This document shows, piece by piece, positions 30,428 to 44,452 of a stretch of 64,000 nucleotides of DNA. The notes beneath the pieces are model-generated. The model had not been told where the DNA came from and searched no databases. It saw only the letters and a program-made list of their open reading frames with translations. Both the position numbers and the translations under genes were made by a program. Location: the sequence record OR896820.1. One strand, written 5' to 3'. Within the stretch, counting starts at the first letter, position 1; each line of letters starts with the position of its first letter. Origin of the DNA: Escherchia phage Stokescottia.

Positions 30428-31066
30428 ATGACTACTCGTATTTCTAAAACTCGCGCTCTGGCAACTATCAAATCTCTGGAAGCTAAAATCCGTAAAGCTA
30501 CTGAACAGCAGCTTCTGATTGCTGTTGGTGAAGGTAAGGATAAAAACCAGGTTGTAGTTGGCGCTGCAATCGAAGTAGCTGATCTGTCTACCCGTATTAA
30601 GACTGATTTCCAATCTCTGCTGGATATGATGTCTCAGCGTGATCGTATCAAATCTGCTCTGATTAAGAGCAATGCAGAAACAATCGTTGAGATCGGTTCT
30701 CGTAAAATGACTGTTGCGGAAGCAATTGAAGCTAAGCGCTCTATGGAGCTTAAAGCTCAACTGCTGGCTAACATGCGTAAGCAGTTCCATGCCGCTACGG
30801 TTAAATTTAATACGCAGAAAGCACAATTTGATGCTAAATATGAGCGTTTACAGGATAGTATGGCTACTCGCGATAAGAAAACTTCCGAAGATGAAGTTAA
30901 AATGCAGCTCAACCTGCTGGAACTCAAGAATACTCCATTCTTGATTGACCCGCTGGAACTGGAAAAGCTGATTAAGCAGCATGACGAGGAATATCAGGAC
31001 TTTGCAACAAATGTTGACTTTGTTCTGTCCGAGTCTAACGCCTCTACCTTCATTGAAGTAGAGTAA
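30428..31066 (+). CDS. hypothetical protein
   Basis: 212-aa ORF, charged and probably helical. Confidence 0.45.
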   Translation: MTTRISKTRALATIKSLEAKIRKATEQQLLIAVGEGKDKNQVVVGAAIEVADLSTRIKTDFQSLLDMMSQRDRIKSALIKSNAETIVEIGSRKMTVAEAIEAKRSMELKAQLLANMRKQFHAATVKFNTQKAQFDAKYERLQDSMATRDKKTSEDEVKMQLNLLELKNTPFLIDPLELEKLIKQHDEEYQDFATNVDFVLSESNASTFIEVE

Positions 31067-31448
31067 TAATTTAAAAGCTAGTAAATCGGTAGACGAAAGC
31101 CCAAGCATCTTACCTCGCAGCAGCGGTTGAAATACGAGGTTAAATAAGACCGCTGACCATACTATAAAGTATAATCTATTGGAGATTATGTTTATTACAC
31201 CAGCCTTTTAAGCTGACACGTAAGAACAAAGCGTCGTTGATATTACCGACACAACTTCAAAGATCAACATTTAAGTATGAAAGCTGAAAAGTTTAAAGAA
31301 CTCAAACTTCTAAACTTCTAAAGCTAAAAGATGCAAAGTATTCGTTGATGATTCAAACCCTAGATCAAAGGTACATGGCTCATAAGATATGGCCTGTGGC
31401 GCCTCTAGGCTGTTTATCGGTTTACTAGTTTCACAATTTAAAAATGTA

Positions 31449-31478
31449 TTTGCTAATTTACTAAGTTATCTGTATAAT
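31449..31478 (+). promoter_or_regulatory. early-type promoter
   Basis: TTGCTA, 18-nt spacer, TGTATAAT. Confidence 0.55.
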
Positions 31479-31508
31479 ATATTTTTAAATTGATGAAACG
31501 AGGCTATT

Positions 31509-31826
31509 ATGACTTTTCATATTTTGATTGATGATGTGCGTAATCTTCACGGAATGGACATTATCATTCGAACCCCAGAAGCCGCTGTAGAGTTTCTGAA
31601 TAAAACTGATACCACAGGCCATTTCGTTTATATGGATAATGACTTGGCTGTAGATGGTATGGAGGGTTATCAAATTCTTCGTTTACTCTTAGAATTTGGG
31701 CAGAGACCAAAGAAAGTGGTACTAGTAACCTCGAACCCAGTAGCTAAGCAAAATATGCGTAATGATTTGCTTGACTTAGGGTATAAAGAAAATCCCAATC
31801 GTGTTGAATATGATTGGCAGGAGTAA
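31509..31826 (+). CDS. hypothetical protein
   Basis: 105-aa ORF. Confidence 0.4.
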   Translation: MTFHILIDDVRNLHGMDIIIRTPEAAVEFLNKTDTTGHFVYMDNDLAVDGMEGYQILRLLLEFGQRPKKVVLVTSNPVAKQNMRNDLLDLGYKENPNRVEYDWQE

Positions 31827-31831
31827 AAAGA

Positions 31832-32281
31832 ATGAAGGCAGCTTTGCTTTTAGTAGCTGCCCTTACCTTCAGCTTTAGTAGTCAGGCATCGCACGATGCA
31901 AGAGAAATAGATTGCATTGCTAAAAATATCTATTTCGAAAGTCGTGGTGAGGGCATAAAGGGAATGACGGCGATTGCACATGTTACTAAAAACCGTGTAA
32001 ACTCCGGTAAATTCCCAGATTCCTACTGTAAAGTAGTATATCAGTCTAACCAGTTCTCTTGGGTATCTAAGAGACCAAAAGTTGATAAAACTGATGAGGC
32101 TTGGCAAACCGCTAAGAATTTAGCTAGAGTGATATACTACGTTGATTTACCACAAGATCCTACACATGGAGCACTATACTTCCACAGTGGTAAAGATAAA
32201 CCTTACTGGACAAAGAAGTTTAAGAAAACAACTAAGATTAAGGGACATACGTTTTATAAACCTGTTGTCACTAAAACTTAA
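31832..32281 (+). CDS. SleB-like cell wall hydrolase with signal peptide
   Basis: N-terminal signal MKAALLLVAALTFSFSSQA; hydrolase-like NIYFESRGE...HVTKNRV...QFSWV. Confidence 0.6.
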   Translation: MKAALLLVAALTFSFSSQASHDAREIDCIAKNIYFESRGEGIKGMTAIAHVTKNRVNSGKFPDSYCKVVYQSNQFSWVSKRPKVDKTDEAWQTAKNLARVIYYVDLPQDPTHGALYFHSGKDKPYWTKKFKKTTKIKGHTFYKPVVTKT

Positions 32282-32289
32282 AAATTTAC

Positions 32290-32318
32290 TTGCTTAAATA
32301 CTTAAATTTCCGTATAAT
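32290..32318 (+). promoter_or_regulatory. early-type promoter
   Basis: TTGCTT, 17-nt spacer, TATAAT, then CATAAATTAATGAGAGG box. Confidence 0.6.
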
Positions 32319-32349
32319 ACTTCCATAAATTAATGAGAGGAAGCGAAAT

Positions 32350-32520
32350 ATGAAATCAGTTGTAATTATTGGTGTTAACACTCGCGGTATTCGTACTACG
32401 AAAACTGTTAAAACTTCTAACGTTGCTGAAATCACTACGAACCCTAAAAAGTTTGATTTCGCCAAAGTCTCAGCAGTTATGACAGAACAATCTTTTAACC
32501 AAGCGTTAGGAATGAAATAA
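32350..32520 (+). CDS. hypothetical small protein
   Basis: 56-aa ORF (below the 60-aa track cut-off) placed right after promoter and SD. Confidence 0.35.
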   Translation: MKSVVIIGVNTRGIRTTKTVKTSNVAEITTNPKKFDFAKVSAVMTEQSFNQALGMK

Positions 32521-32963
32521 TGGAAGAGAATATTTTAGATGTTTTGCGTAGAGCTTTGCAGGATTCTAAGTTTAATGGTTCTGATAAAGAAGTCGCCAAA
32601 AGCTATCAGACCATAATTGGGGATCTTCAGCGTATTGATAAAGATTTCATCACTTCTGAACAATTTGTGTCTTATCTCAAAGCTCAACTAAAAAGCATTA
32701 ACCAGATGAAAGCTAAACTTCATGGTCAAGATCTCGATAGTTATAGCCTACAGTCTGCTCAGTATGAATACATTCTAAATAAGTGGTTGCAGGAGTATCT
32801 GCCCCCTCAGTTATCTGATACTGAGATTCGTAAATACTTTGCAGAATTAGTTAAGCTAAACCCTGGAATTACAAAGGGTATGCTGATGAAAGCGATTAAG
32901 GAAGAATTTCCTGGGCGTTATGATGGTGGTACTGCTGCTCAGATTGCTGGCGAATTTAATTAA
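32520..32963 (+). CDS. GatB/YqeY-domain-like protein
   Basis: 147 aa; C-terminal ...KGMLMKAIKEEFPGRYDGGTAAQIAGEF resembles YqeY. Confidence 0.4.
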   Translation: MEENILDVLRRALQDSKFNGSDKEVAKSYQTIIGDLQRIDKDFITSEQFVSYLKAQLKSINQMKAKLHGQDLDSYSLQSAQYEYILNKWLQEYLPPQLSDTEIRKYFAELVKLNPGITKGMLMKAIKEEFPGRYDGGTAAQIAGEFN

Positions 32964-32971
32964 AAATTCAT

Positions 32972-33000
32972 TTGCTAAATGCTTATAAATTCTGTATAAT
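32972..33000 (+). promoter_or_regulatory. early-type promoter reading into a non-coding region
   Basis: TTGCTA, 17-nt spacer, TGTATAAT; no ORF follows for ~900 nt. Confidence 0.6.
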
Positions 33001-33224
33001 ATATTCATAAATTAGGGAACAGCGAGCCGATTACGCTGAGTGCAGAATCCCAACCGGAGCGCATTGAATAGAGTCGGTGGGTTAGTTGTAAAACTAGTAC
33101 ACAGGGGGCGGCAATTCCGGTTAGTGGCTAGAACGTGTAAAATGAGGCGTCTGAAACCTCTCCCCTAAACTCTTCTCTAATTTATAAATAGTGGGGTGTG
33201 GAAATCACTTATGTAGTAACACTG

Positions 33225-33295
33225 CCGTCCTAGTATAATTGGTATTATCAAGCCGTAACTGGTGGAAGATGTAGGTTCGAATCCTACGGTCGGTA
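33225..33295 (+). ncRNA. degenerate tRNA-like element
   Basis: Canonical T-arm GTAGG TTCGAAT CCTAC but no canonical acceptor or anticodon stems. Confidence 0.25.
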
Positions 33296-33797
33296 AGAAC
33301 TGGATAACTGGTGCTTTTAACGTAAAAGCTTCCGAGGTTAGTTGCGCACTGCCTAAACCACGCGGTAGTTGGTTCCAGACTAACCAACCAGTCTGCTGAA
33401 TAGTTTTATTACGATTTAACTATGTCCAGGCTAAAGAAGAACTTTAGAAGGTATTCTAGGATAGTGAAGTTCTTTCTCCATATCGGAGTAGTTTTTCAAG
33501 CTATCCACAAAGTGGGAAATGCTGACATGAGAGATGTCACTAATGGTGCACAATAGCACAGGTAATTCGCGATAATTCCTGTTGAGTAGCAGCAAAAGGC
33601 GGGAAGTCATGACCCCAAGCCTAACCGAGTCCTCAATATACCGCAGGACATAACCACTAAGTCACCCTGACTTAAACTGGAAAATAATAGACGTTACCGT
33701 ATTTTGTCTTGAAATACTTAATGAGTGGGACTTATGACTCTCCCGGTATCGTCTGTATTTTTAAGAGTTTTTACGAGAGTTCTTAAAAATACTTAAA

Positions 33798-33872
33798 CGG
33801 GGTGTAGTCTAAGGGAGAGGCAGGAGTCTTCTAAATTCCTTTATGCAGGTTCGAATCCTGTCACCTCGGCCA
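33798..33872 (+). tRNA. tRNA-Arg(TCT)
   Basis: Hand-folded cloverleaf: acceptor CGGGGTG/CACCTCG, anticodon loop CTTCTAA, T-loop TTCGAAT, encoded CCA. Confidence 0.65.
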
Positions 33873-33906
33873 ATTTTATTAACTGTAACTAAAACAAAGG
33901 AAATAT

Positions 33907-34854
33907 ATGTTTGCTACTAAAAACACTAAAGAACTGACTTATGAGCAAAAATTAATGCGTAATATCAAACGTTGGGGTATTGGGGCTGCAGTTGGTTTGG
34001 TAGGTTTAGTTCTGGCTCTTAACTCTTACACTGTTGTTCAAGACGGTACTGTTAAAACCCAGACTTTCCTGGGTAAAGTTGACCCTAGCCCAGTATTACC
34101 CGGCTTTCATATTGTAAATCCTTTTGCTTCTTTCGATACTTTTAGTACTAAAGATATTGCTCTAAAATTAGATAAACTTCAGGTTCCTAGTCAGGATAAG
34201 TTTAAATCCACTGTTGACCTGACTGTTATGTTGCAGTTTGATGGTTCTAAGGCACCGATTAACCGTATTAATGCAGGTACTCAGGATCAAGCATTAGACA
34301 AATATGTAACTGAAAAATTACTGTCTACTATTCGTGAGTTTGGTAAGTCTGTACCTAAAGCACAAGATTTATTTGATGCTAAAATTCAGGCTCAATTGCA
34401 AACTGCAATTCAACAGGAAGTTGAAGAGTATGCACGCCCATATGGTTACACAGTTAAGCAGGTGTTTCTTCAGGATATTACTTTGCCACCGGTAATCATG
34501 GAACAGGTACAGAATACCAAAGTTCGTGAAGAGCAAGTTAATGCTGCGAAAGCTGAGCTTGCTCGTGTTGAACAGGAAGCACAGCAAAAAGTTAAACAAG
34601 CAGAAGCAGATCGTGAAGCTCGCAATAACCAAGCTATTGCTAATGAACGTGACGCAGATGCTAAACTGTACGCAGCTAAGAAAGAAGCTGAAGCTAACGC
34701 CGCACTGCAACGTACCATTACTCCTGAGATGATTCGTTGGAAACAACTGGAAGTTGAGATGATTCGTGCTCAGAAATATCAAGGTGGTGTACCTCAGACT
34801 GTAGTTGGCACTGGCTATGATGGTCAAATGATCATGGATATGCGTAACAAGTAA
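33907..34854 (+). CDS. SPFH/band-7-like membrane protein
   Basis: 315 aa; N-terminal TM helix, then domain followed by Ala/Glu-rich coiled coil. Confidence 0.5.
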   Translation: MFATKNTKELTYEQKLMRNIKRWGIGAAVGLVGLVLALNSYTVVQDGTVKTQTFLGKVDPSPVLPGFHIVNPFASFDTFSTKDIALKLDKLQVPSQDKFKSTVDLTVMLQFDGSKAPINRINAGTQDQALDKYVTEKLLSTIREFGKSVPKAQDLFDAKIQAQLQTAIQQEVEEYARPYGYTVKQVFLQDITLPPVIMEQVQNTKVREEQVNAAKAELARVEQEAQQKVKQAEADREARNNQAIANERDADAKLYAAKKEAEANAALQRTITPEMIRWKQLEVEMIRAQKYQGGVPQTVVGTGYDGQMIMDMRNK

Positions 34855-34878
34855 TAGTTACACGTAATCTTCGAACTA

Positions 34879-34915
34879 AGCCCGCGTTTTCTCCGAGAGC
34901 GCGGGCTTTTCTGTA
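34879..34915 (+). terminator. rho-independent terminator
   Basis: AAGCCCGCG...CGCGGGCTT hairpin followed by TTTCTGTATTT. Confidence 0.6.
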
Positions 34916-34920
34916 TTTAA

Positions 34921-34968
34921 GGAAAAAGAAAAAGCCCCTTACCTTTCGGCAGGGGCTTTTGTTTTTTG
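34921..34968. terminator. bidirectional terminator between convergent genes
   Basis: AGCCCCTT...AGGGGCT hairpin flanked by an A-run upstream and a T-run downstream. Confidence 0.6.
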
Positions 34969-35174
34969 GTTTAGAACCACACTCTCGGTGTACAGCAACC
35001 ACCTATATGGGAGGCCAACCTTGACTGAAAATCTACTCTAGGGGGCAGGATAAGAGTAGGCTTAAAGGCAAACGGATTGAACGCCGGTATTTGCGTAAAC
35101 ATTGCTGGAGAGCAACAACGTGCTACAGGCATTGGGCAGCACGAAACAGATTTTCTGCAACACATAATTCCTCC

Positions 35175-35591
35175 TTAGGAGTTATTACCACCATTTTGAG
35201 CTTTTGCAACTTGGCTTTGGCAGAAGCTATTAAACTTACCCATAAGTGATACAAGCTGCTTCCCGTCCTCTGTCTTTGCGAAGTCTTCGAAAAGGGCTAG
35301 TACTGCCTGTCCTTCCGCAGAAACCTGCGGTTGTTGGGTTTGTTGCTGAACTTGCTGCTGCGGCATCTGTTGCTGCATTTGTTGAGGCATTTGCGACTGC
35401 CCGCTCATTTGCTGCATCATTTGCATAGGACTCACACTTCCAGGGTTTTGCTGGAGTTGTTGCTGCATCTGTTGCGCTTCTGCTAAACGCTGTTGCAACT
35501 GTTGTAAGTAGGGGTTATCCAGACCCGGCATGGGCTGCTGGGAGCCCATACTTTGATTAAGTCCGTTATTTACAAAACCATATTTACTCAT
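35175..35591 (-). CDS. glutamine-rich hypothetical protein
   Basis: 138 aa; long Q/M-rich low-complexity core. Confidence 0.45.
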   Translation of the reverse strand: MSKYGFVNNGLNQSMGSQQPMPGLDNPYLQQLQQRLAEAQQMQQQLQQNPGSVSPMQMMQQMSGQSQMPQQMQQQMPQQQVQQQTQQPQVSAEGQAVLALFEDFAKTEDGKQLVSLMGKFNSFCQSQVAKAQNGGNNS

Positions 35592-35612
35592 AATGGGCTC
35601 CTCCCCTTAATA

Positions 35613-36605
35613 TTAAGCCGGCAGTTTAGCCTGCAGACCAGCCAGAGTCTGAGTGATAGCACCAAGACTTAAAGCGATTTGATTAATTACCTGACCGTTA
35701 GCACCGCTACCCGCAGCGATTGCTTCACGTAGGCGACATGCATCTAACTCATCCTGGATACGCGCAGTAGTTACACCAGCGATCGCAGTCTGAAGCTCAC
35801 AGCAGCACTCAGCAAGCTGGCGTTCGATAGAGTTCTGGTTAGCACACATCTGAGCCTGAACAGCGGCAAACTGGTTATTAGTTTGTAAAGTCTGCTGGAA
35901 AGCGATCTGTGCAGAATCAAACTTATCTTGTGCACGAGCTATCTGGTTAGCTGCGAAAGATTGATCAATCTGGCGAGAAAGATCGAACTGACCCTGAATA
36001 ACGTTGCGAGTTTCCTGGCAGATCTGATTAGACAGATTAGCACCTGTACCATAGATCGTAGTTAGTACAGACTGAGTATCACGGCTCTGGTTTTGGGATG
36101 TCTGGCTAAAACCATTGTTAACTGCGCTTAAAACAGCTCCAGTACCCTGGTTAGCTTCTGTACGAGTAGTGTTAATAGCTGCTAGAATACTAGCGGTATC
36201 TTGGTTCTGAAGTACTGCATCAACTGCGGTACCTTCACCAACTATACCACGTCCACCGAATCCACCGAAACCACCGAATCCGCCTGTTAATAGAGCACCG
36301 ATTAGGATAGCTCCGAATAGTCCCATACCTTCACCACCGAAAGCGCCTGCGTTTGCTGGGTAACCACCCATTAGGCCAGGGAAGCCACTAGTGAATACGT
36401 TTACTGGTTCTTGCATTTTACGTTTTCCATATTTATGACAATACTCATCATCGTCATCTTCTTCATCATCTTCATCGTGTTCACGATGTTTCTCTTCGTA
36501 GGCTCTGACCTTCTCCCACTTTTTCTTATCTGATTCCTCGTGACGGTGCAGTTCTGCTGCAACGCTAGCGACGGTCTCAGGACTCTTAGCTACTTCTTCT
36601 GTCAT
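35613..36605 (-). CDS. glycine-rich hypothetical protein with acidic N-terminal tract
   Basis: DEDDEEDDDDEY tract, GGFGGFGGFGG repeat, Q/N/T-rich tail; ATG at 36605 has AGGAGG SD. Confidence 0.5.
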   Translation of the reverse strand: MTEEVAKSPETVASVAAELHRHEESDKKKWEKVRAYEEKHREHDEDDEEDDDDEYCHKYGKRKMQEPVNVFTSGFPGLMGGYPANAGAFGGEGMGLFGAILIGALLTGGFGGFGGFGGRGIVGEGTAVDAVLQNQDTASILAAINTTRTEANQGTGAVLSAVNNGFSQTSQNQSRDTQSVLTTIYGTGANLSNQICQETRNVIQGQFDLSRQIDQSFAANQIARAQDKFDSAQIAFQQTLQTNNQFAAVQAQMCANQNSIERQLAECCCELQTAIAGVTTARIQDELDACRLREAIAAGSGANGQVINQIALSLGAITQTLAGLQAKLPA

Positions 36606-36812
36606 TTTTTGACACCTCCTAGTATATAGAAAATGTGTGTCTCTTTGATCACTCATCCATAACATATACTTTACACTACCCCAGCGAAAATGTCAAGGGG
36701 TCTTTAAAAATTGCCCCTGGATTTTTAGTGGGGTCACAAATTTTGGTCCTCACCACTTATCTGCTACCCTTAAGTGCCCTATGATTTTCCTCTAAAAAGT
36801 TAAAAAATTTGA

Positions 36813-36841
36813 TTGCTTGAATGCTAAATTCTCTGTATAAT
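36813..36841 (+). promoter_or_regulatory. early-type promoter
   Basis: TTGCTT, 17-nt spacer, TGTATAAT, then CTATAAATTTGAGAGAGG box. Confidence 0.6.
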
Positions 36842-36871
36842 ATATCTATAAATTTGAGAGAGGAACCAAAT

Positions 36872-37390
36872 ATGAATGTTGATGAGCTAACACAGCACCT
36901 CTTATCTAGAGGATTTGATACAGATAAATATCATTGCTGGTTAAGTCCGGAAGGGTGGCTAACAGTCCCGTTGTATGATTTCTCTGGAATGTTGAGGGGC
37001 TATCAAACTTATAATCCTTCTGCTCCAAAAGGTCATGGTAAGTGCCCCTTTGAAGCTAAATACTTTACTTATTCTACTACACAGTGTGTATGGGGACTAG
37101 AAACTCTCAATGGGGATGAAAAAGTAGTATTGATTGCTGAATCTGTATTTAAGGCAGTTGCATTACATAATGCTGGTTATCCAGCCCTAGCAATGTTAGG
37201 TTCTTCTCCAGGAAAAGCGTTATTAAAGCAACTGAAATTACTACCCTTTAAATTGGTAGCTGTCGGGGATAATGATCCTGCGGGTGAAAAATTTGCTAGA
37301 AAATTAAACGGCTTTGTTTCTCCCGTAGATGTGGATGAGATGTCTACCGAAAACTTGAAAAATTTTCTTGCTATGAAGCTAAATTTCTAA
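36872..37390 (+). CDS. Toprim-domain protein
   Basis: 173 aa; Glu in LIAESVF and DxD in VGDNDPAG suggest a Toprim fold. Confidence 0.45.
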   Translation: MNVDELTQHLLSRGFDTDKYHCWLSPEGWLTVPLYDFSGMLRGYQTYNPSAPKGHGKCPFEAKYFTYSTTQCVWGLETLNGDEKVVLIAESVFKAVALHNAGYPALAMLGSSPGKALLKQLKLLPFKLVAVGDNDPAGEKFARKLNGFVSPVDVDEMSTENLKNFLAMKLNF

Positions 37391-37396
37391 TATAAT
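37367..37396 (+). promoter_or_regulatory. early-type promoter driving the tRNA island
   Basis: TTGCTA, 18-nt spacer, TATAAT; overlaps the 3' end of the Toprim ORF; tRNA-Ser begins ~16 nt after the -10. Confidence 0.55.
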
Positions 37397-37411
37397 ATAT
37401 CTTATAAATTC

Positions 37412-37500
37412 GGAAGAATAGCATAACGGTATTGCAGCAGATTGCTAATCTGTCGGTTTGAAATATAGCCTTGTGGGTTCGATTCCCACTTCTTCCGCCA
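37412..37500 (+). tRNA. tRNA-Ser(GCT)
   Basis: Acceptor GGAAGAA/TTCTTCC, anticodon loop TTGCTAA, long variable arm, encoded CCA. Confidence 0.7.
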
Positions 37501-37505
37501 AATTT

Positions 37506-37583
37506 GGTTCTCAAGCTCATATGGTATGAGCACCCGGCTCATAACCGGAAGGTACGTAGGTTCGAATCCTCGGGGAGCCACCA
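37506..37583 (+). tRNA. tRNA with CAT anticodon (Met or Ile2)
   Basis: Acceptor GGTTCTC/GGGAGCC, D-stem GCTC/GAGC, anticodon loop CTCATAA; T-stem imperfect. Confidence 0.55.
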
Positions 37584-37601
37584 ATTAAATAGAGGTCACA
37601 A

Positions 37602-37790
37602 ATGGATCTATATATAGTTTATGTTGTGTTTATTCAAGATAGAGAATACCCGGATGAATATAAAAAAGGATATAGGTTAGCCAGAGCTACATCTGAAGCC
37701 CAAGCTATGGATAAAGTGGCGGATTATATGATTACGGTAGAAAACGTACACTATATCGACTACCTTGAAGCCTCAAAAGTAATTGACTAA
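37602..37790 (+). CDS. hypothetical protein
   Basis: 62-aa ORF inside the tRNA island. Confidence 0.35.
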   Translation: MDLYIVYVVFIQDREYPDEYKKGYRLARATSEAQAMDKVADYMITVENVHYIDYLEASKVID

Positions 37791-37799
37791 GGAGACTAT

Positions 37800-37985
37800 A
37801 TGTCTAAGTTTCAAGAACTCAAGCAAGAGCTAGAAGAATGTGCCTGCCCTGAGTGTAGGGGAATTGGTGAAAGTTCTGATGCAGAAGCAGGAGATACTTT
37901 TTGCAATATCTGGGTTTGCCCAAATTGCAAGGGTACAGGTATTAATCCTAACTGCGGTATTTCCCTAGATATTGAACGAGGATAA
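37800..37985 (+). CDS. hypothetical zinc-ribbon-like protein
   Basis: 61 aa with CxxC...CxxC (CACPECRG...CPNCKG). Confidence 0.4.
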   Translation: MSKFQELKQELEECACPECRGIGESSDAEAGDTFCNIWVCPNCKGTGINPNCGISLDIERG

Positions 37986-38086
37986 TACCTGTGAAACTAA
38001 AAGATTATTATATTGGTTGGTTTGTAGGACTAGTAGTAGGATTTTCACTAGGCTATAATATGTATCAACTAATAAACTGATTACAC

Positions 38087-38163
38087 GGGGGTGTAATCGA
38101 ATTGGCATAGGTACTGGACTTAAAATTCAGGTTTTGTGGGTTCGAATCCCACCACCACTACCA
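38087..38163 (+). tRNA. tRNA-Leu(TAA), atypical short variable loop
   Basis: Anticodon loop CTTAAAA, T-arm GTGGG TTCGAAT CCCAC, encoded CCA; one acceptor mismatch; 5-nt variable loop. Confidence 0.5.
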
Positions 38164-38338
38164 AATTAAGGAAATAAGATGTATAGACATCCACCTCCGC
38201 CAACACGTCGTTCTAGAGAAGTTATTCTCATGGAATTGACTAAAAACTTCAAGGCAACCCTTGAAGATAGAGATCTAGGCACGGATGAAGACATTGATTT
38301 TATTTGTAGACTATTAAAGATGAAACTGGAGAAACAAC

Positions 38339-38545
38339 ATGGCTAATCCTGAAATTACCGCACAACGTTTCATGCTTAAAGGTATGATTGCTGAGGCGGG
38401 TATAACTCAAGAGGTTGCAGATTTTCATAAGCAATTTCTTGATATTATAACTCTAGCTAAAGAGACTGGAGAAAAAGAGCACGGAGCAGCAATTATGGCT
38501 ATATCTCTTATTAGTCTAGACTTGGCTGAAGAATCTGGAGTTTAG
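38339..38545 (+). CDS. hypothetical protein
   Basis: 68-aa ORF. Confidence 0.35.
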   Translation: MANPEITAQRFMLKGMIAEAGITQEVADFHKQFLDIITLAKETGEKEHGAAIMAISLISLDLAEESGV

Positions 38546-38575
38546 CTCCTCCAAACAGAATTTTTAAAAATGTAC

Positions 38576-38605
38576 TTGCCTTTTGCTTTAAATTTCTGGT
38601 ATAAT
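38576..38605 (+). promoter_or_regulatory. early-type promoter
   Basis: TTGCCT, 18-nt spacer, TGgTATAAT, then TATAAATTGATGAAGGAG box. Confidence 0.55.
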
Positions 38606-38635
38606 AATTATATAAATTGATGAAGGAGTTAACTA

Positions 38636-39221: not shown

Positions 39222-39292
39222 TGGGGTACGCATAGGTTGCAAATGGGCCTCCAAAACCCATGAAAAGGTTTCGAATACCTTTACCCCTGCCA
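39222..39292 (+). tRNA. tRNA-Trp(CCA)-like
   Basis: Anticodon loop CTCCAAA, T-arm AAGGT TTCGAAT ACCTT, CCA; mismatches at 1-72 and in the D-stem. Confidence 0.45.
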
Positions 39293-40823: not shown

Positions 40824-41171
40824 ATGATTAATGCTAAAGAAGAATTGTTACTTGCCCTAAAGAATACTAATTCTGAAGTTAAGTGTATTAAGATAGAATT
40901 CGGTTATTATGGGGACAAAGAAGTTTGGGTATTACCCGTAGGTTATACAGAAAAAGATATTGAAGATTTTCTAAATAATCTAGACTTTAAATATGATTCT
41001 GGTTTCGGTGGACAATTGCTTTATGGTAACGTATGGTTTACTGATGGAACTTGGTTAGAACGTGGTGAATATGATGGTTCTGAATGGTGGGAGTATAAGA
41101 CTACACCAGCAATCCCTGAGGAATGCCGAACAATTAATGGTGAGGTAGATAATACTTTACGGTTAAACTAA
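40824..41171 (+). CDS. hypothetical protein
   Basis: 115-aa ORF. Confidence 0.4.
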   Translation: MINAKEELLLALKNTNSEVKCIKIEFGYYGDKEVWVLPVGYTEKDIEDFLNNLDFKYDSGFGGQLLYGNVWFTDGTWLERGEYDGSEWWEYKTTPAIPEECRTINGEVDNTLRLN

Positions 41172-41563
41172 TAAAATTTCAGTGCAGAACACGGAGCTAG
41201 CAATTCGGAAGTGCTGACTCATGATAAGCTGCCTATGTACTTGCGAAGCGGTCGTGTCCAAGACTCGGACTCTTGCACTGAAAACAATCAAACATTCTAG
41301 CGTGGTTGATGGGGAAACCAGCTTGGCGAGGGCAGAAGCTCGTTCGATTCGAGTGAAAGAATGGTTCTCGTAAGTCCGCACAAGTGATAACAGGTTCGAG
41401 TCCTGTCTAGAATGACACTATAAAGTTTACTTATTATGTAGGTTCCGGTAGATCGGCGGGTCTATTCTGGCATTTAAGAGAGGTCTCGCAAACTTCTTTG
41501 TCAGCCGTGGGGTTGGTAGCCTCCAGGCGGCCTACACAATAAGTAAATTTATTAAAAATTCAT

Positions 41564-41592
41564 TTGCTATTCTGCTTAATTCTCTGTATAAT
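41564..41592 (+). promoter_or_regulatory. early-type promoter
   Basis: TTGCTA, 17-nt spacer, TGTATAAT. Confidence 0.6.
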
Positions 41593-41624
41593 ATATTTTA
41601 TAAAGTGAAGAGAAGGAAAGCAAA

Positions 41625-42776: not shown

Positions 42777-42867
42777 GGAAGAGCAAATCGAATTGGCGAC
42801 GAAAACCGCTTGGAAAGTGGCTGACTGGTAAAACGGCTTGAGAGTTCAAATCTCTCCTCTTCCGCCA
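42777..42867 (+). tRNA. tRNA-Ser(GGA)
   Basis: Acceptor GGAAGAG/CTCTTCC, loop TTGGAAA, long variable arm, T-arm GAGAG TTCAAAT CTCTC, CCA. Confidence 0.65.
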
Positions 42868-42886
42868 AACACTTGAGGTAATAATA

Positions 42887-43337: not shown

Positions 43338-43889
43338 ATTAACTATAAGGAAATCTTATGAGCAAAACAGTTACTGTAACAATGAAGGATGGTAAAAAAT
43401 TTAAAGCATGTCTTCATGAAACAGATAAGGGATGGATGGCTTATTTGCCACACCTAGATTCCACCAGGTACGGAATGACCCAACGTGAAGCTATTGTTGA
43501 TGCTTTAAATGAGGCTTCTGCTGGTTTATAAAAATTCTTGAAGTATGCCGGAATTGGTAGACGGGGCTGCCTAAAAGGTTTATAGAGAACATCCACTCTC
43601 TACAACATACCTCATAAAGCGGCTGAGATAAATGGTCTATCTCGTGAAGGTTCAAGTCCTTCTGCTTCTTGATACATCTATGGCTCAAAGTGTAACGGTG
43701 CTATTTGATGCTCTTAGTAAGACTTCCCCGACATGCGTTCGGGAGTAAGCTGCTAAGGCTAGAGTAGAAGAGTTTCTGAGAGCCGCCACAATTGAAAATT
43801 CGTACTCGTCTTGAGCTGCGTGCAATAGGAGATAACTTGATTAGTATTCTAGAACATGCTAATTGAGGAAGGTTTCGCTAACCCTGCGA

Positions 43890-43966
43890 GTTTTCAATTG
43901 TGGCTATATCATAATTGGTTAATGATCCTGATTGTGAATCAGGCCTATGTGGATTCGAGTTCCACT
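43890..43966 (+). tRNA. tRNA-His(GTG)
   Basis: Acceptor GTGGCTA/TAGCCAC, D-stem TCAT/ATGA, anticodon arm CCTGA TTGTGAA TCAGG, CCA. Confidence 0.7.
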
Positions 43967-44368: not shown

Positions 44369-44376
44369 AACAATAA

Positions 44377-44452
44377 GCGGTTAAGCACACGGGTTGTGTC
44401 GCAGGCCTTCCAAGCCTCGCTGAGTAGGGTTCGATTCCCTCTAGCCGCTCCA
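44377..44452 (+). tRNA. tRNA-Gly(TCC)
   Basis: Acceptor GCGGTTA/TAGCCGC, anticodon loop CTTCCAA, T-loop TTCGATT, CCA. Confidence 0.6.

What the first reader, a model, noticed from the sequence alone, without database searches (positions are those of the whole stretch)
41172..41563. Unresolved structured RNA between tRNA-Asp and the next promoter
This ~390 nt gap in the tRNA island has no plausible ORF. It contains a ~100 nt element closed by a long-range helix (CAGTGCAGA...TCTTGCACTG, about 41181-41280), a T-arm-like hairpin (GCTCG TTCGATT CGAGT, 41338-41354) and a second T-arm (ACAGG TTCGAGT CCTGT, 41390-41406). The second is flanked by palindrome-derived pairing ATTCTAG/CTAGAAT about 120 nt apart. 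None folds into a standard 76-nt tRNA, so these may be non-canonical or intron-containing tRNAs, tRNA pseudogenes or a different stable RNA.
Basis: seen in the sequence. Interest (0 to 1): 0.65.

Follow-up and report, generated by a model that had tools for sequence, protein, structure and literature searches.

The report
Known T5 stable RNAs, function unknown
This gap in a T5-like phage's tRNA island holds two small stable RNA genes already annotated in phage T5 (the tRNA-like RNA2 and RNA IV, both of unknown function), plus one extremely conserved 100-nt stretch that nobody has annotated.

Summary
The window is a Tequintavirus, 99.8% identical to Escherichia phage BUCT632 over this interval. 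The interval is not unresolved. GenBank records of T5 (NC_005859) and phage 5 (AJ604531) annotate two genes here. RNA2 is a 'tRNA-like stable RNA with unknown functions' at window 41293-41417. RNA IV is a 'stable RNA with unknown functions' at 41436-41538.

It has a tRNA scaffold: acceptor stem, D-arm and T-arm. Its anticodon loop is replaced by a conserved ~55-nt branched insert that carries a second canonical T-arm. Covariation across about ten phage lineages supports this fold strongly. The family also occurs in T4-like Acinetobacter phages, and I found no convincing bacterial copy.

It is also supported by covariation.

It is the most conserved stretch of the neighbourhood (99.3% identity), but its helix is no better than chance and its fold is unproven.

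My best reading is three co-transcribed non-coding modules, with RNA2 a non-decoding tRNA mimic. That function is inferred, not shown. Verdict: already known, with modest new detail.

The parts
41180..41280 (+). Element A: an unannotated 101-nt ultra-conserved segment. It is closed by CAGTGCA(GA)/(TC)tTGCACTG. The folding ensemble predicts a central 10-bp hairpin, 41204-41214 with 41237-47. The strand is inferred from context only.
   Evidence: Not annotated in NC_005859 or AJ604531. Present in 219 phage records, all at least 93.8% identical. 99.3% identity with 10 variable columns of 101 over about 38 distinct loci, against 91.4% for the adjacent ORF. Fold z = -0.19. Helix not beyond chance. 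Substitutions neither support nor exclude the inner helices. No Rfam match.
41281..41292 (+). A-rich spacer (AAAACAATCAAA) between element A and RNA2.
   Evidence: In phages that lack element A, RNA2 directly follows a tRNA 3' end...CCAAAT(A/T)A.
41293..41417 (+). RNA2 ortholog: a 125-nt tRNA-like stable RNA. Acceptor stem 41293-41300 with 41407-41414. D-arm 41303-41320. 4-bp 'anticodon' stem 41322-41325 with 41381-41384. 5-nt variable loop 41385-41389. 3' tail ACA with no encoded CCA.
   Evidence: Maps onto the rna2 features of AJ604531 and NC_005859. Scores 149 bits with covariance model R1. 96% of cells paired, and 23 of 30 pairs changed on both sides.
41326..41380 (+). Conserved insert that replaces the anticodon loop of RNA2. 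J1 GCGAGGGCAGAA (GGG invariant). T-arm 1 at 41338-41354. J2 GAAAGAA. Hairpin P5 at 41362-41378 (UGG/CCG stem, loop UUCUCGUAAGU). Then CA.
   Evidence: GAAAGAATGGTTCNCGTAA is identical in T5-like, Serratia, Acinetobacter and metagenomic phages. T-arm 1 has 3 of 5 pairs changed on both sides, and its G-C pair next to the loop is invariant. P5 rests only on U-G to U-A changes.
41390..41406 (+). T-arm 2 of RNA2 (ACAGG TTCGAGT CCTGT), in the normal tRNA position next to the acceptor 3' strand.
41423..41550 (+). RNA IV precursor structure. A ~22-bp closing stem (the outer 13 bp are A/U-rich and invariant) leads to a four-way junction with three hairpins: 41447-41466, 41467-41504 (loop CUCGCAA) and 41509-41523.
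   Evidence: Inverted repeat I5. Fold z = -5.4. RNAalifold and pair counts: 99% paired, 10 pairs changed on both sides against 1.7 in shuffles. Model R2 scores 146 bits on the + strand and 30 bits on the - strand.
41436..41538 (+). Mature RNA IV as annotated in T5 and phage 5 (103 nt, AUGUAGG...CCUACACA). Both ends lie opposite each other inside the closing stem.
   Evidence: Mapping. The sequence is identical in layout to T5 rnaIV.
41564..41592 (+). Sigma-70-type promoter (TTGCTA, 17 nt, TATAAT), equal to T5 promoter P13a. It starts the next operon and bounds the non-coding block.
   Evidence: Annotated as P13a. Member of the promoter repeat family D6.

Best explanation
The interval carries three consecutive non-coding modules of the T5-type early tRNA operon. 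All are read on the + strand together with the flanking tRNAs.

(1) RNA2 (41293-41417) is the ortholog of T5 RNA2. Shown: it has a tRNA scaffold of an 8-bp acceptor stem, a D-arm with a GG loop, a 5-nt variable loop and a canonical T-arm. Its anticodon loop is replaced by a conserved ~55-nt three-way insert that carries a second canonical T-arm and an invariant GAAAGAAUGGUUCNCGUAA segment. Inferred: it is cut out of the precursor like a tRNA, by RNase P and 3' trimming. It folds into an L-shape with a second T-loop/GG 'elbow'. It acts in trans as a tRNA mimic that engages a tRNA-recognising factor and does not decode. The factor could be a host defence nuclease, or a processing or modification enzyme.

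(2) RNA IV (41436-41538) is the ortholog of T5 RNA IV. Shown: it is a cloverleaf-shaped four-way junction. Inferred: it is released from a ~22-bp stem by a double-strand-specific cut of the RNase III type.

(3) Element A (41180-41280) is an unannotated segment under very strong sequence constraint. It is probably a third processed RNA of the same transcript. Its fold and role are open.

Likelihoods: identity of RNA2 and RNA IV above 0.95; that RNA2 is a non-decoding tRNA mimic acting in trans about 0.5; that its target is an anti-phage defence factor about 0.25; that A is an RNA gene about 0.5.
For: Identity:
- 99.8% identity to a Tequintavirus.
- Base-for-base mapping onto rna2 and rnaIV of AJ604531 and NC_005859.

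RNA2 structure:
- 23 distinct sequences from about 10 lineages. 96.1% of cells are paired, against 27-44% when partners are slid.
- 23 of 30 pairs changed on both sides, and 0 of 500 shuffles reach this.
- Ordinary tRNAs score 16-37 bits with the RNA2 model and true members score 71 bits or more. The outer scaffold is therefore tRNA-like while the family stays distinct.

Not decoding:
- There is no 7-nt anticodon loop. Aragorn and Rfam are negative.
- The position that would be U33 in the CUCGUAA loop varies among U, G, A and C.
- The Acinetobacter versions lack a convincing acceptor stem but keep both T-arms and the insert.

Trans-acting accessory gene:
- The insert is the most conserved part across unrelated phage families, T5-like siphoviruses and ~160-kb T4-like Acinetobacter phages.
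- It nearly always lies in or beside tRNA clusters on the tRNA strand.
- No protein family is shared between the T5-like and the Acinetobacter-type or metagenomic neighbourhoods.
- No copy in E. coli genomes or plasmids. None is convincing in 185,579 prokaryotic species genomes.
- The T5 tRNA region is deletable and already known to carry counter-defence tRNAs (PMC11464382; see also PMC13096335 for T6).

RNA IV.

Element A conservation.
Against: - No expression, end-mapping or binding data could be examined here. The 'stable RNA' status rests on GenBank annotation. The original papers are not in the searchable library.
- Nothing identifies a target for RNA2, and the decoy idea is by analogy only.
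- Hairpin P5 of RNA2 has almost no covariation.
- The RNA2 alignment was fitted to the model, which inflates pair counts somewhat.
- The annotated RNA IV ends give about a 1-nt 3' overhang, not the canonical 2-nt overhang of RNase III.
- Element A: the helix is chance-level, the fold energy is ordinary, there is no covariation, and three independent substitutions at 41245 break a pair in both candidate folds. Its conservation could reflect a DNA-level role or recent horizontal spread.
Confidence: 0.6

Rival explanations
1. Cis-acting punctuation. The three elements have no trans function. They are structured spacers that guide RNase P, RNase III or RNase E processing, stabilise the polycistronic tRNA precursor, or insulate it from the next promoter.
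For: All three lie between genes of one transcription unit, directly upstream of promoter P13a. RNA IV and RNA III both use long terminal stems that abut neighbouring genes. The region is dispensable in laboratory hosts (PMC11464382).
Against: A pure spacer would not keep a 19-nt internal motif identical between T5-like and T4-like Acinetobacter phages, whose flanking genes differ completely. The modules are gained and lost independently. Element A is absent from most Epseptimavirus. A tRNA-Gly or an ORF can sit between RNA2 and RNA IV. SHSML-45 matches only A and RNA2, not the RNA IV part of the interval.
Confidence: 0.2
2. RNA2 is a chargeable tRNA-like RNA that acts on the ribosome in a tmRNA-like or other non-canonical translational role.
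For: It has an intact acceptor/T-arm minihelix and a D-loop GG. The Klebsiella version encodes N-CCA. The Kamaji version has G3-U70 plus A73, the alanine identity set. In Acinetobacter phage W16 the homolog sits 16 nt upstream of an RF-1-domain ORF.
Against: The acceptor sequence and discriminator base are not conserved. T5-type copies end in ACA or ACT, not CCA. The Acinetobacter versions lack a convincing acceptor stem. There is no tag-like reading frame or pseudoknot series, and Aragorn finds no tmRNA.
Confidence: 0.07
3. One reading: decaying tRNA pseudogenes, or tRNAs interrupted by an intron that is removed to give a decoding tRNA.
For: Two T-arms and an acceptor stem are present. T5 RNA1 (window 43539-43670) does hit the tRNA model weakly, as a tRNA with a large insert.
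Against: Compensatory changes maintain every tRNA-like helix, and the insert is the most conserved part, which is the opposite of decay. The insert is about 55 nt, with no group I intron match and no Rfam match at E<=10. Removing it would leave only a 4-bp stem with no loop or anticodon.
Confidence: 0.04
4. Element A is conserved for a DNA-level reason, such as a homing-endonuclease target, a recombination joint or a recent sweep of a mobile module, and not as an RNA.
For: There is near-identity without any diverged homologs. Its presence is modular, with sharp junctions at tRNA-3'-end-like CCAAAT sequences. HNH homing endonuclease genes populate this island in relatives. There is no thermodynamic or covariation support for a fold.
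Against: The constraint covers the full 101 nt, more than a nuclease site needs. It lies inside a transcribed operon on the tRNA strand. It is more conserved between genera than RNA2 or RNA IV in the same genomes: in L003, A has 3 substitutions, while RNA2 is 91% and RNA IV 75% identical.
Confidence: 0.15

Closest known systems
Bacteriophage T5 RNA2 (gene rna2, T5s06; also annotated in phage 5, AJ604531)
   Same: Same gene. It is collinear and nearly identical, and lies between ORF T5.067 and RNA IV / promoter P13a.
   Different: Nothing essential differs. New here are a fold supported by covariation, the recognition that the insert holds a second canonical T-arm, and homologs outside the T5-like phages.
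Bacteriophage T5 RNA IV (gene rnaIV, T5s05)
   Same: Same gene and position. The window scores 146 bits with the family model.
   Different: Nothing essential differs. The four-way-junction fold and the staggered ends inside a long stem are my inference.
Phage T4 species 1 and species 2 RNAs (rnaC, rnaD)
   Same: Small stable RNAs of unknown function, encoded at the end of a phage tRNA cluster and co-processed with tRNAs. rnaC ends in a T-arm.
   Different: Homology is not detectable. rnaC scores 19 bits with the RNA2 model, the same as ordinary tRNAs. It has no second T-arm and no GAAAGAAUGG motif.
Bacterial Y RNA-like YrlA (RF02553)
   Same: A non-decoding RNA with a tRNA-like domain (T-arm, D-arm, acceptor-like stem) that tRNA enzymes recognise. 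Some are cut by RNase P and receive CCA (PMC4201824).
   Different: No Rfam YrlA match on RNA2 or any homolog. No Ro60/Rsr gene was seen nearby. In RNA2 the 5' and 3' ends form the acceptor stem, not a Ro-binding stem.
Canonical tRNA (RF00005)
   Same: Acceptor stem, D-arm with GG, 5-nt variable loop, T-arm with G53-C61 and a TTCRA loop. tRNAs cross-match the RNA2 model at 16-37 bits.
   Different: No anticodon arm, no encoded CCA, 125 nt long, and not detected by Aragorn or Rfam.

Membership tests
T5 RNA2 (tRNA-like stable RNA) | Sequence orthology to the annotated rna2 gene | tested here: met
   Alignment to AJ604531 rna2 has only a few mismatches. T5 rna2 scores 145.6 bits and the window 149.4 bits with the same model.
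T5 RNA2 (tRNA-like stable RNA) | Synteny: downstream of ORF T5.067 / tRNA-Asp, upstream of RNA IV and promoter P13a | tested here: met
T5 RNA2 (tRNA-like stable RNA) | Accumulates as a discrete stable RNA in infected cells | not testable with these tools
   Only the GenBank annotation is available. No primary paper is in the library.
T5 RNA IV (stable RNA) | Sequence orthology and synteny with the annotated rnaIV gene | tested here: met
T5 RNA IV (stable RNA) | Discrete 103-nt stable species | not testable with these tools
   Annotation only.
Canonical tRNA | Cloverleaf with a 5-bp anticodon stem and a 7-nt loop bearing an anticodon | tested here: not met
   Aragorn finds none in 41172-41563. 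Rfam tRNA has no match even at E<=10. The conserved fold has a 55-nt insert instead.
Canonical tRNA | Acceptor stem, D-arm with GG, T-arm with a T-loop | tested here: met
   Cross-scores with real tRNAs.
Canonical tRNA | 3' CCA, encoded as in the other tRNAs of this island | tested here: not met
   RNA2 is followed by ACA, while the neighbouring tRNAs end ...CCAAA(T).
tmRNA | tRNA-like domain plus a tag reading frame and pseudoknots | tested here: not met
   Aragorn reports no tmRNA. No Rfam tmRNA match.
YrlA / Y RNA-like | Match to RF02553, with a Ro-binding terminal stem | tested here: not met
   No match on the window interval or on five homologs at E<=10. The weak YrlA matches fall on genuine tRNAs.
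T4 species 1 RNA (rnaC) | Detectable homology to rnaC | tested here: not met
   19.2 bits, E = 0.029, within the range of unrelated tRNAs.
tRNA with group I intron | A group I intron of about 200 nt or more in the anticodon loop | tested here: not met
   The insert is about 55 nt. No intron family matched.

The most novel reading that the evidence does not exclude
RNA2-type 'double T-arm' RNAs are a phage-specific class of tRNA mimic. They are exchanged between unrelated phage families. They act in trans on a host tRNA-recognising factor, for example as a decoy for a tRNA-targeting defence nuclease. Element A would be a third, so far unannotated, stable RNA gene of T5-like phages whose near-invariant sequence reflects a specific molecular partner.
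Probability: 0.2. Interest if true: 0.65.

Novelty: already known. Interest (0 to 1): 0.33.

Why it matters
T5's non-tRNA stable RNAs have been annotated since at least the mid-2000s GenBank records without a function. The tRNA island they sit in is now known to carry counter-defence tRNAs, such as the T5 tRNA-Lys that counters PARIS.

Three results here give concrete handles for experiments:
- A fold of RNA2 supported by covariation.
- The finding that its conserved core (two T-arms plus an invariant 19-nt motif) is shared with T4-like Acinetobacter phages.
- The identification of an unannotated, almost invariant 101-nt neighbour.

As a genome-scan finding, however, it mainly rediscovers annotated genes.

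Tried and rejected
- Rfam at gathering score and at E<=10, on the window interval and on five diverged homologs: nothing relevant.
- Aragorn: no tRNA or tmRNA in the interval.
- Host mimicry by sequence: no blastn match in 5,426 E. coli genomes or in PLSDB plasmids.
- Motif scan of 185,579 species genomes: four hits. Three are chance matches in Bacteroidota. The fourth is a phage-like 167-kb contig.
- Conserved protein partner: no ORF family is shared between T5-like and Acinetobacter-type neighbourhoods. Flanking ORFs have no known function.
- Paralogy among T5 stable RNAs (RNA1, 2, 3, I, III, IV, 2H and element A): none beyond 7-mers.
- The MFE fold of RNA2, which pairs J1 with the P5 region: rejected. 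The G/T polymorphism at 41328 has an invariant partner, and other lineages break those pairs.
- Extending the P3 stem by GCG/CGC: rejected for the same reason.
- An alternative pairing of the RNA2 5' end with AGAAUG after T-arm 1: present only in T5-type sequences, so treated as chance.
- Coding potential of element A: a stop codon appears in L003 and the GTG start has no Shine-Dalgarno sequence.
- Kissing interaction between A's UUGCGA and the CUCGYAA loops of RNA IV and RNA2: the motif contains A's most variable positions, so it was dropped.
- The T5 nick consensus (GCGC) is absent from element A.
- Repeats: none involve element A.
- Literature searches for T5 RNA2 or RNA IV function: nothing is held in the library. 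Wang et al. 2005 is not held.

Full report
WHAT THE WINDOW IS. Over 41150-41600 the window is 99.8% identical to Escherichia phage BUCT632, and 476 phage records match this stretch, mostly T5-like Salmonella and Escherichia phages. It is therefore a Tequintavirus (Demerecviridae). The interval lies in the early tRNA island: Aragorn tRNAs between 33.8 and 45.9 kb, all on the + strand. Upstream of the interval is a 115-aa ORF, 40824-41171, equal to T5.067 and of unknown function. Downstream is a strong sigma-70-type promoter, TTGCTA-17-TATAAT at 41564-41592, equal to T5 promoter P13a.

THE OBSERVATION. The T-arm hairpins are far beyond chance. The window has 26 hairpins with a 5-bp stem, a G-C closing pair and a TTYRANN loop. 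All are on the + strand, against 0.56 expected on both strands. The two at 41338-41354 and 41390-41406 are among six that lie outside tRNAs called by Aragorn or Rfam. No tRNA, tmRNA or Rfam family is detected in the interval, even at E<=10. There is no credible ORF.

The long-range helix of the first element is not statistically unusual. 82% of shuffles of the interval contain an equally long perfect helix, and 42% contain an equally long bulged one. The element's folding energy is ordinary, z = -0.19.

IT IS ALREADY ANNOTATED. The GenBank record 'Bacteriophage 5 tRNA gene region' (AJ604531) and the T5 RefSeq record (NC_005859) both annotate two misc_RNA genes here:
- rna2: 'tRNA-like (stable) RNA with unknown functions', 125 nt.
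- rnaIV: 'stable RNA with unknown functions', 103 nt.

A pairwise alignment maps rna2 to window 41293-41417 (CAUUCUAG...CUAGAAUGACA) and rnaIV to 41436-41538 (AUGUAGG...CCUACACA). Phage 5 has an extra 350 bp between them, containing an ORF. Many Epseptimavirus genomes have a tRNA-Gly there.

RNA2. Both T-arms and the ATTCTAG/CTAGAAT pairing belong to this one molecule. I collected homologs by BLAST and by motif scans of viral, genomic and metagenomic collections. I then built a covariance model and aligned 23 distinct members from about ten lineages. The lineages are:
- Tequintavirus and Epseptimavirus;
- Serratia phage Kamaji and Klebsiella T5-like phages;
- three unclassified metagenomic or MAG contigs: L164 and L171 (164-167 kb) and L182 (10.5 kb);
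- the T4-like Acinetobacter phages 133, W16 and AB2I2.

The comparative fold, in window sequence, is:

CAUUCUAGCGUGGUUGAUGGGGAAACCAGCUUGGCGAGGGCAGAAGCUCGUUCGAUUCGAGUGAAAGAAUGGUUCUCGUAAGUCCGCACAAGUGAUAACAGGUUCGAGUCCUGUCUAGAAUGACA
((((((((..(((((........))))).((((............(((((.......))))).......(((...........)))..)))).....(((((.......)))))))))))))...

96.1% of cells form standard pairs, against 27-44% when the partners are slid by 1-3 columns. 23 of 30 pairs show changes on both sides, and no shuffle out of 500 reaches any of the five measures. The acceptor stem, D-arm, the 4-bp 'anticodon' stem and both T-arms all covary. The small hairpin P5 is supported only by U-G to U-A changes. One caveat applies: the alignment was fitted to the model, which favours it somewhat.

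The scaffold follows tRNA numbering: acceptor stem, two nucleotides, D-arm with GG, one nucleotide, stem, 5-nt variable loop, T-arm, acceptor strand. The exception is that the 7-nt anticodon loop is replaced by about 55 nt. That insert consists of a GGG-containing strand, a second T-arm with a canonical TTCGATT loop and an invariant G-C closing pair, GAAAGAA, and a hairpin whose loop contains CNCGUAA.

Real tRNAs score 16-37 bits with this model, and true members score 71-150 bits. The single-sequence MFE fold mis-pairs the insert. A G/T polymorphism at 41328 with an invariant partner, and the sequences of other lineages, refute that pairing.

The insert is the most conserved part. GAAAGAATGGTTCNCGTAA is identical from T5 to Acinetobacter phage 133. 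The Acinetobacter versions lack a convincing acceptor stem and D-stem, yet they keep both T-arms, the enclosing stem and the insert.

The element lies in or next to tRNA clusters on the tRNA strand in four of the five non-T5 loci examined. I found no protein family shared between the T5-like and the Acinetobacter-type or metagenomic neighbourhoods. It has no match in E. coli genomes or plasmids. The only 'bacterial' hit in 185,579 species genomes that looks genuine is a 167-kb contig with a phage-like tRNA cluster. T4 species 1 RNA is not detectably related, at 19 bits.

RNA IV. A 20-nt inverted repeat, 41423-41442 with 41531-41550, is 90% complementary, and the fold has z = -5.4. Twenty-one distinct sequences, down to 75% identity, give a consensus of a ~22-bp closing stem and a four-way junction with three hairpins. 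99% of cells are paired, and 10 pairs change on both sides against 1.7 in shuffles and 0-4 when slid.

A covariance model scores 146 bits on the + strand and 30 bits on the - strand. It finds the RNA only in Markadamsvirinae loci, not in the Kamaji, Klebsiella or Acinetobacter loci held. BLAST gives the same range.

The annotated mature ends lie opposite each other inside the closing stem, at a 2x2 internal loop, with a 3' overhang of about 1 nt. This suggests a double-strand-specific cut of the RNase III type. That is inference. RNA III (43785-43904) uses the same long-stem design.

ELEMENT A (41180-41280). It occurs in 219 phage records, all at least 93.8% identical and 154 of them at least 99% identical, and no diverged homolog was found. 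Across about 38 distinct loci it is 99.3% identical, with 10 variable columns of 101. That makes it the most conserved annotated or structured block of the neighbourhood; only the 18-nt spacer before RNA IV scores marginally higher. For comparison, the adjacent ORF is 91.4% identical, RNA2 97.5%, RNA IV 94.6% and the tRNAs 88-99%. In the Epseptimavirus PRF-SP12 it has 3 substitutions, while RNA2 is 91% and RNA IV 75% identical.

It behaves as a module. It is absent from most Epseptimavirus genomes, where RNA2 directly follows a tRNA 3' end. In PRF-SP12 it is preceded by an odd tRNA-like sequence and not by the ORF.

It is not coding: the only ATG frame acquires a stop codon in PRF-SP12. The folding ensemble favours the terminal helix and a central 10-bp hairpin, 41204-14 with 41237-47, at P about 0.85. 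The few substitutions are uninformative or mixed: two preserve pairs as wobbles, and three independent changes at 41245 break one. It has no paralog among the other T5 stable RNAs and takes part in no repeats. Its strand is inferred only from context.

HOW IT MOST LIKELY WORKS.

Shown:
- Three non-coding modules lie in one + strand tRNA operon.
- RNA2 is a conserved tRNA-shaped RNA without an anticodon arm and with two T-arms.
- RNA IV is a conserved four-way junction closed by a long stem.

Inferred:
- RNA2 is excised by the tRNA-processing machinery, as shown for tRNA-like Y RNAs with 7-bp acceptor stems (PMC4201824).
- RNA2 acts in trans as a tRNA mimic and not as a decoder. The position equivalent to U33 is variable, the acceptor identity is not conserved, and the acceptor stem is dispensable in one lineage.

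An anti-defence decoy role is attractive for two reasons. The T5 tRNA island is dispensable in the laboratory: the T5Mos deletion 30661-38625 spans these genes if the coordinates refer to the reference genome. The island also encodes a tRNA-Lys that neutralises PARIS (PMC11464382). T-even tRNA loci similarly counter Septu (PMC13096335). No direct evidence links RNA2 to any target, and I put this specific version at about 0.25.

Rival explanations are cis-acting processing punctuation (about 0.2), a chargeable ribosome-directed RNA (about 0.07), a pseudogene or intron-containing tRNA (about 0.04), and, for element A, a DNA-level constraint (about 0.15).

NOVELTY AND VERDICT. RNA2 and RNA IV are orthologs of genes already annotated in T5, BF23-type and phage 5 records, so the finding is a rediscovery: 'already known, function unknown'.

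Modestly new here are:
- the RNA2 architecture supported by covariation, with its second T-arm;
- its presence in T4-like Acinetobacter phages and its absence from Rfam 15;
- the RNA IV fold;
- the recognition of an unannotated, near-invariant 101-nt element upstream.

Interest is low to moderate.

Noticed in passing
window 42838-42876: A T-arm (GAGAG TTCAAAT CTCTC) followed by ...GCCAAA, like a tRNA 3' end. Neither Aragorn nor Rfam at gathering score calls a tRNA here. It is a degenerate tRNA or another tRNA-like RNA.
   Followed up: no
window 43539-43670: Ortholog of T5 RNA1. It matches the Rfam tRNA model below threshold (25 bits) over 132 nt, meaning a tRNA scaffold with a large insert. 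This is the same design principle as RNA2, with no sequence similarity to it.
   Followed up: partly
window 39222-39289 and 44376-44449: Sub-threshold tRNA matches (23 and 31 bits) at the positions of T5 tRNA-Trp and tRNA-Gly1. Aragorn missed both.
   Followed up: no
window 43785-43802 / 43887-43904: An 18-nt, 94% complementary closing stem of the RNA III ortholog, abutting tRNA-His. It uses the same long-terminal-stem design as RNA IV.
   Followed up: no
L003 (Salmonella phage PRF-SP12) 714-796: An odd tRNA-like sequence, GGGGTCT...AGACTCCACCA, whose 'T-arm' has a non-T-loop (GGGAG TAACACGTAGT CTCCC). It sits just upstream of element A. A related piece lies inside the phage 5 insert between RNA2 and RNA IV.
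   Followed up: no
L163 (Acinetobacter phage W16) 560-926: The RNA2-like RNA lies 16 nt upstream of a 76-aa ORF annotated 'RF-1 domain peptide chain release factor'. The same clusters in L166 and L171 carry tRNAs with a CUA (amber-reading) anticodon.
   Followed up: partly
window 41365-41375 and 41485-41491: The RNA2 hairpin P5 and the RNA IV long hairpin both display a CUCGYAA loop (CUCGUAA and CUCGCAA) that looks like an anticodon loop. In non-T5 RNA2 homologs the 'U33' position varies, so a true anticodon-loop mimic is doubtful.
   Followed up: partly
L004 (Serratia phage Kamaji) 307-429: The acceptor end of this RNA2 homolog reads G1-C72, G2-C71, G3-U70 with A73, which is the alanine identity set. 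Other lineages do not share it.
   Followed up: no
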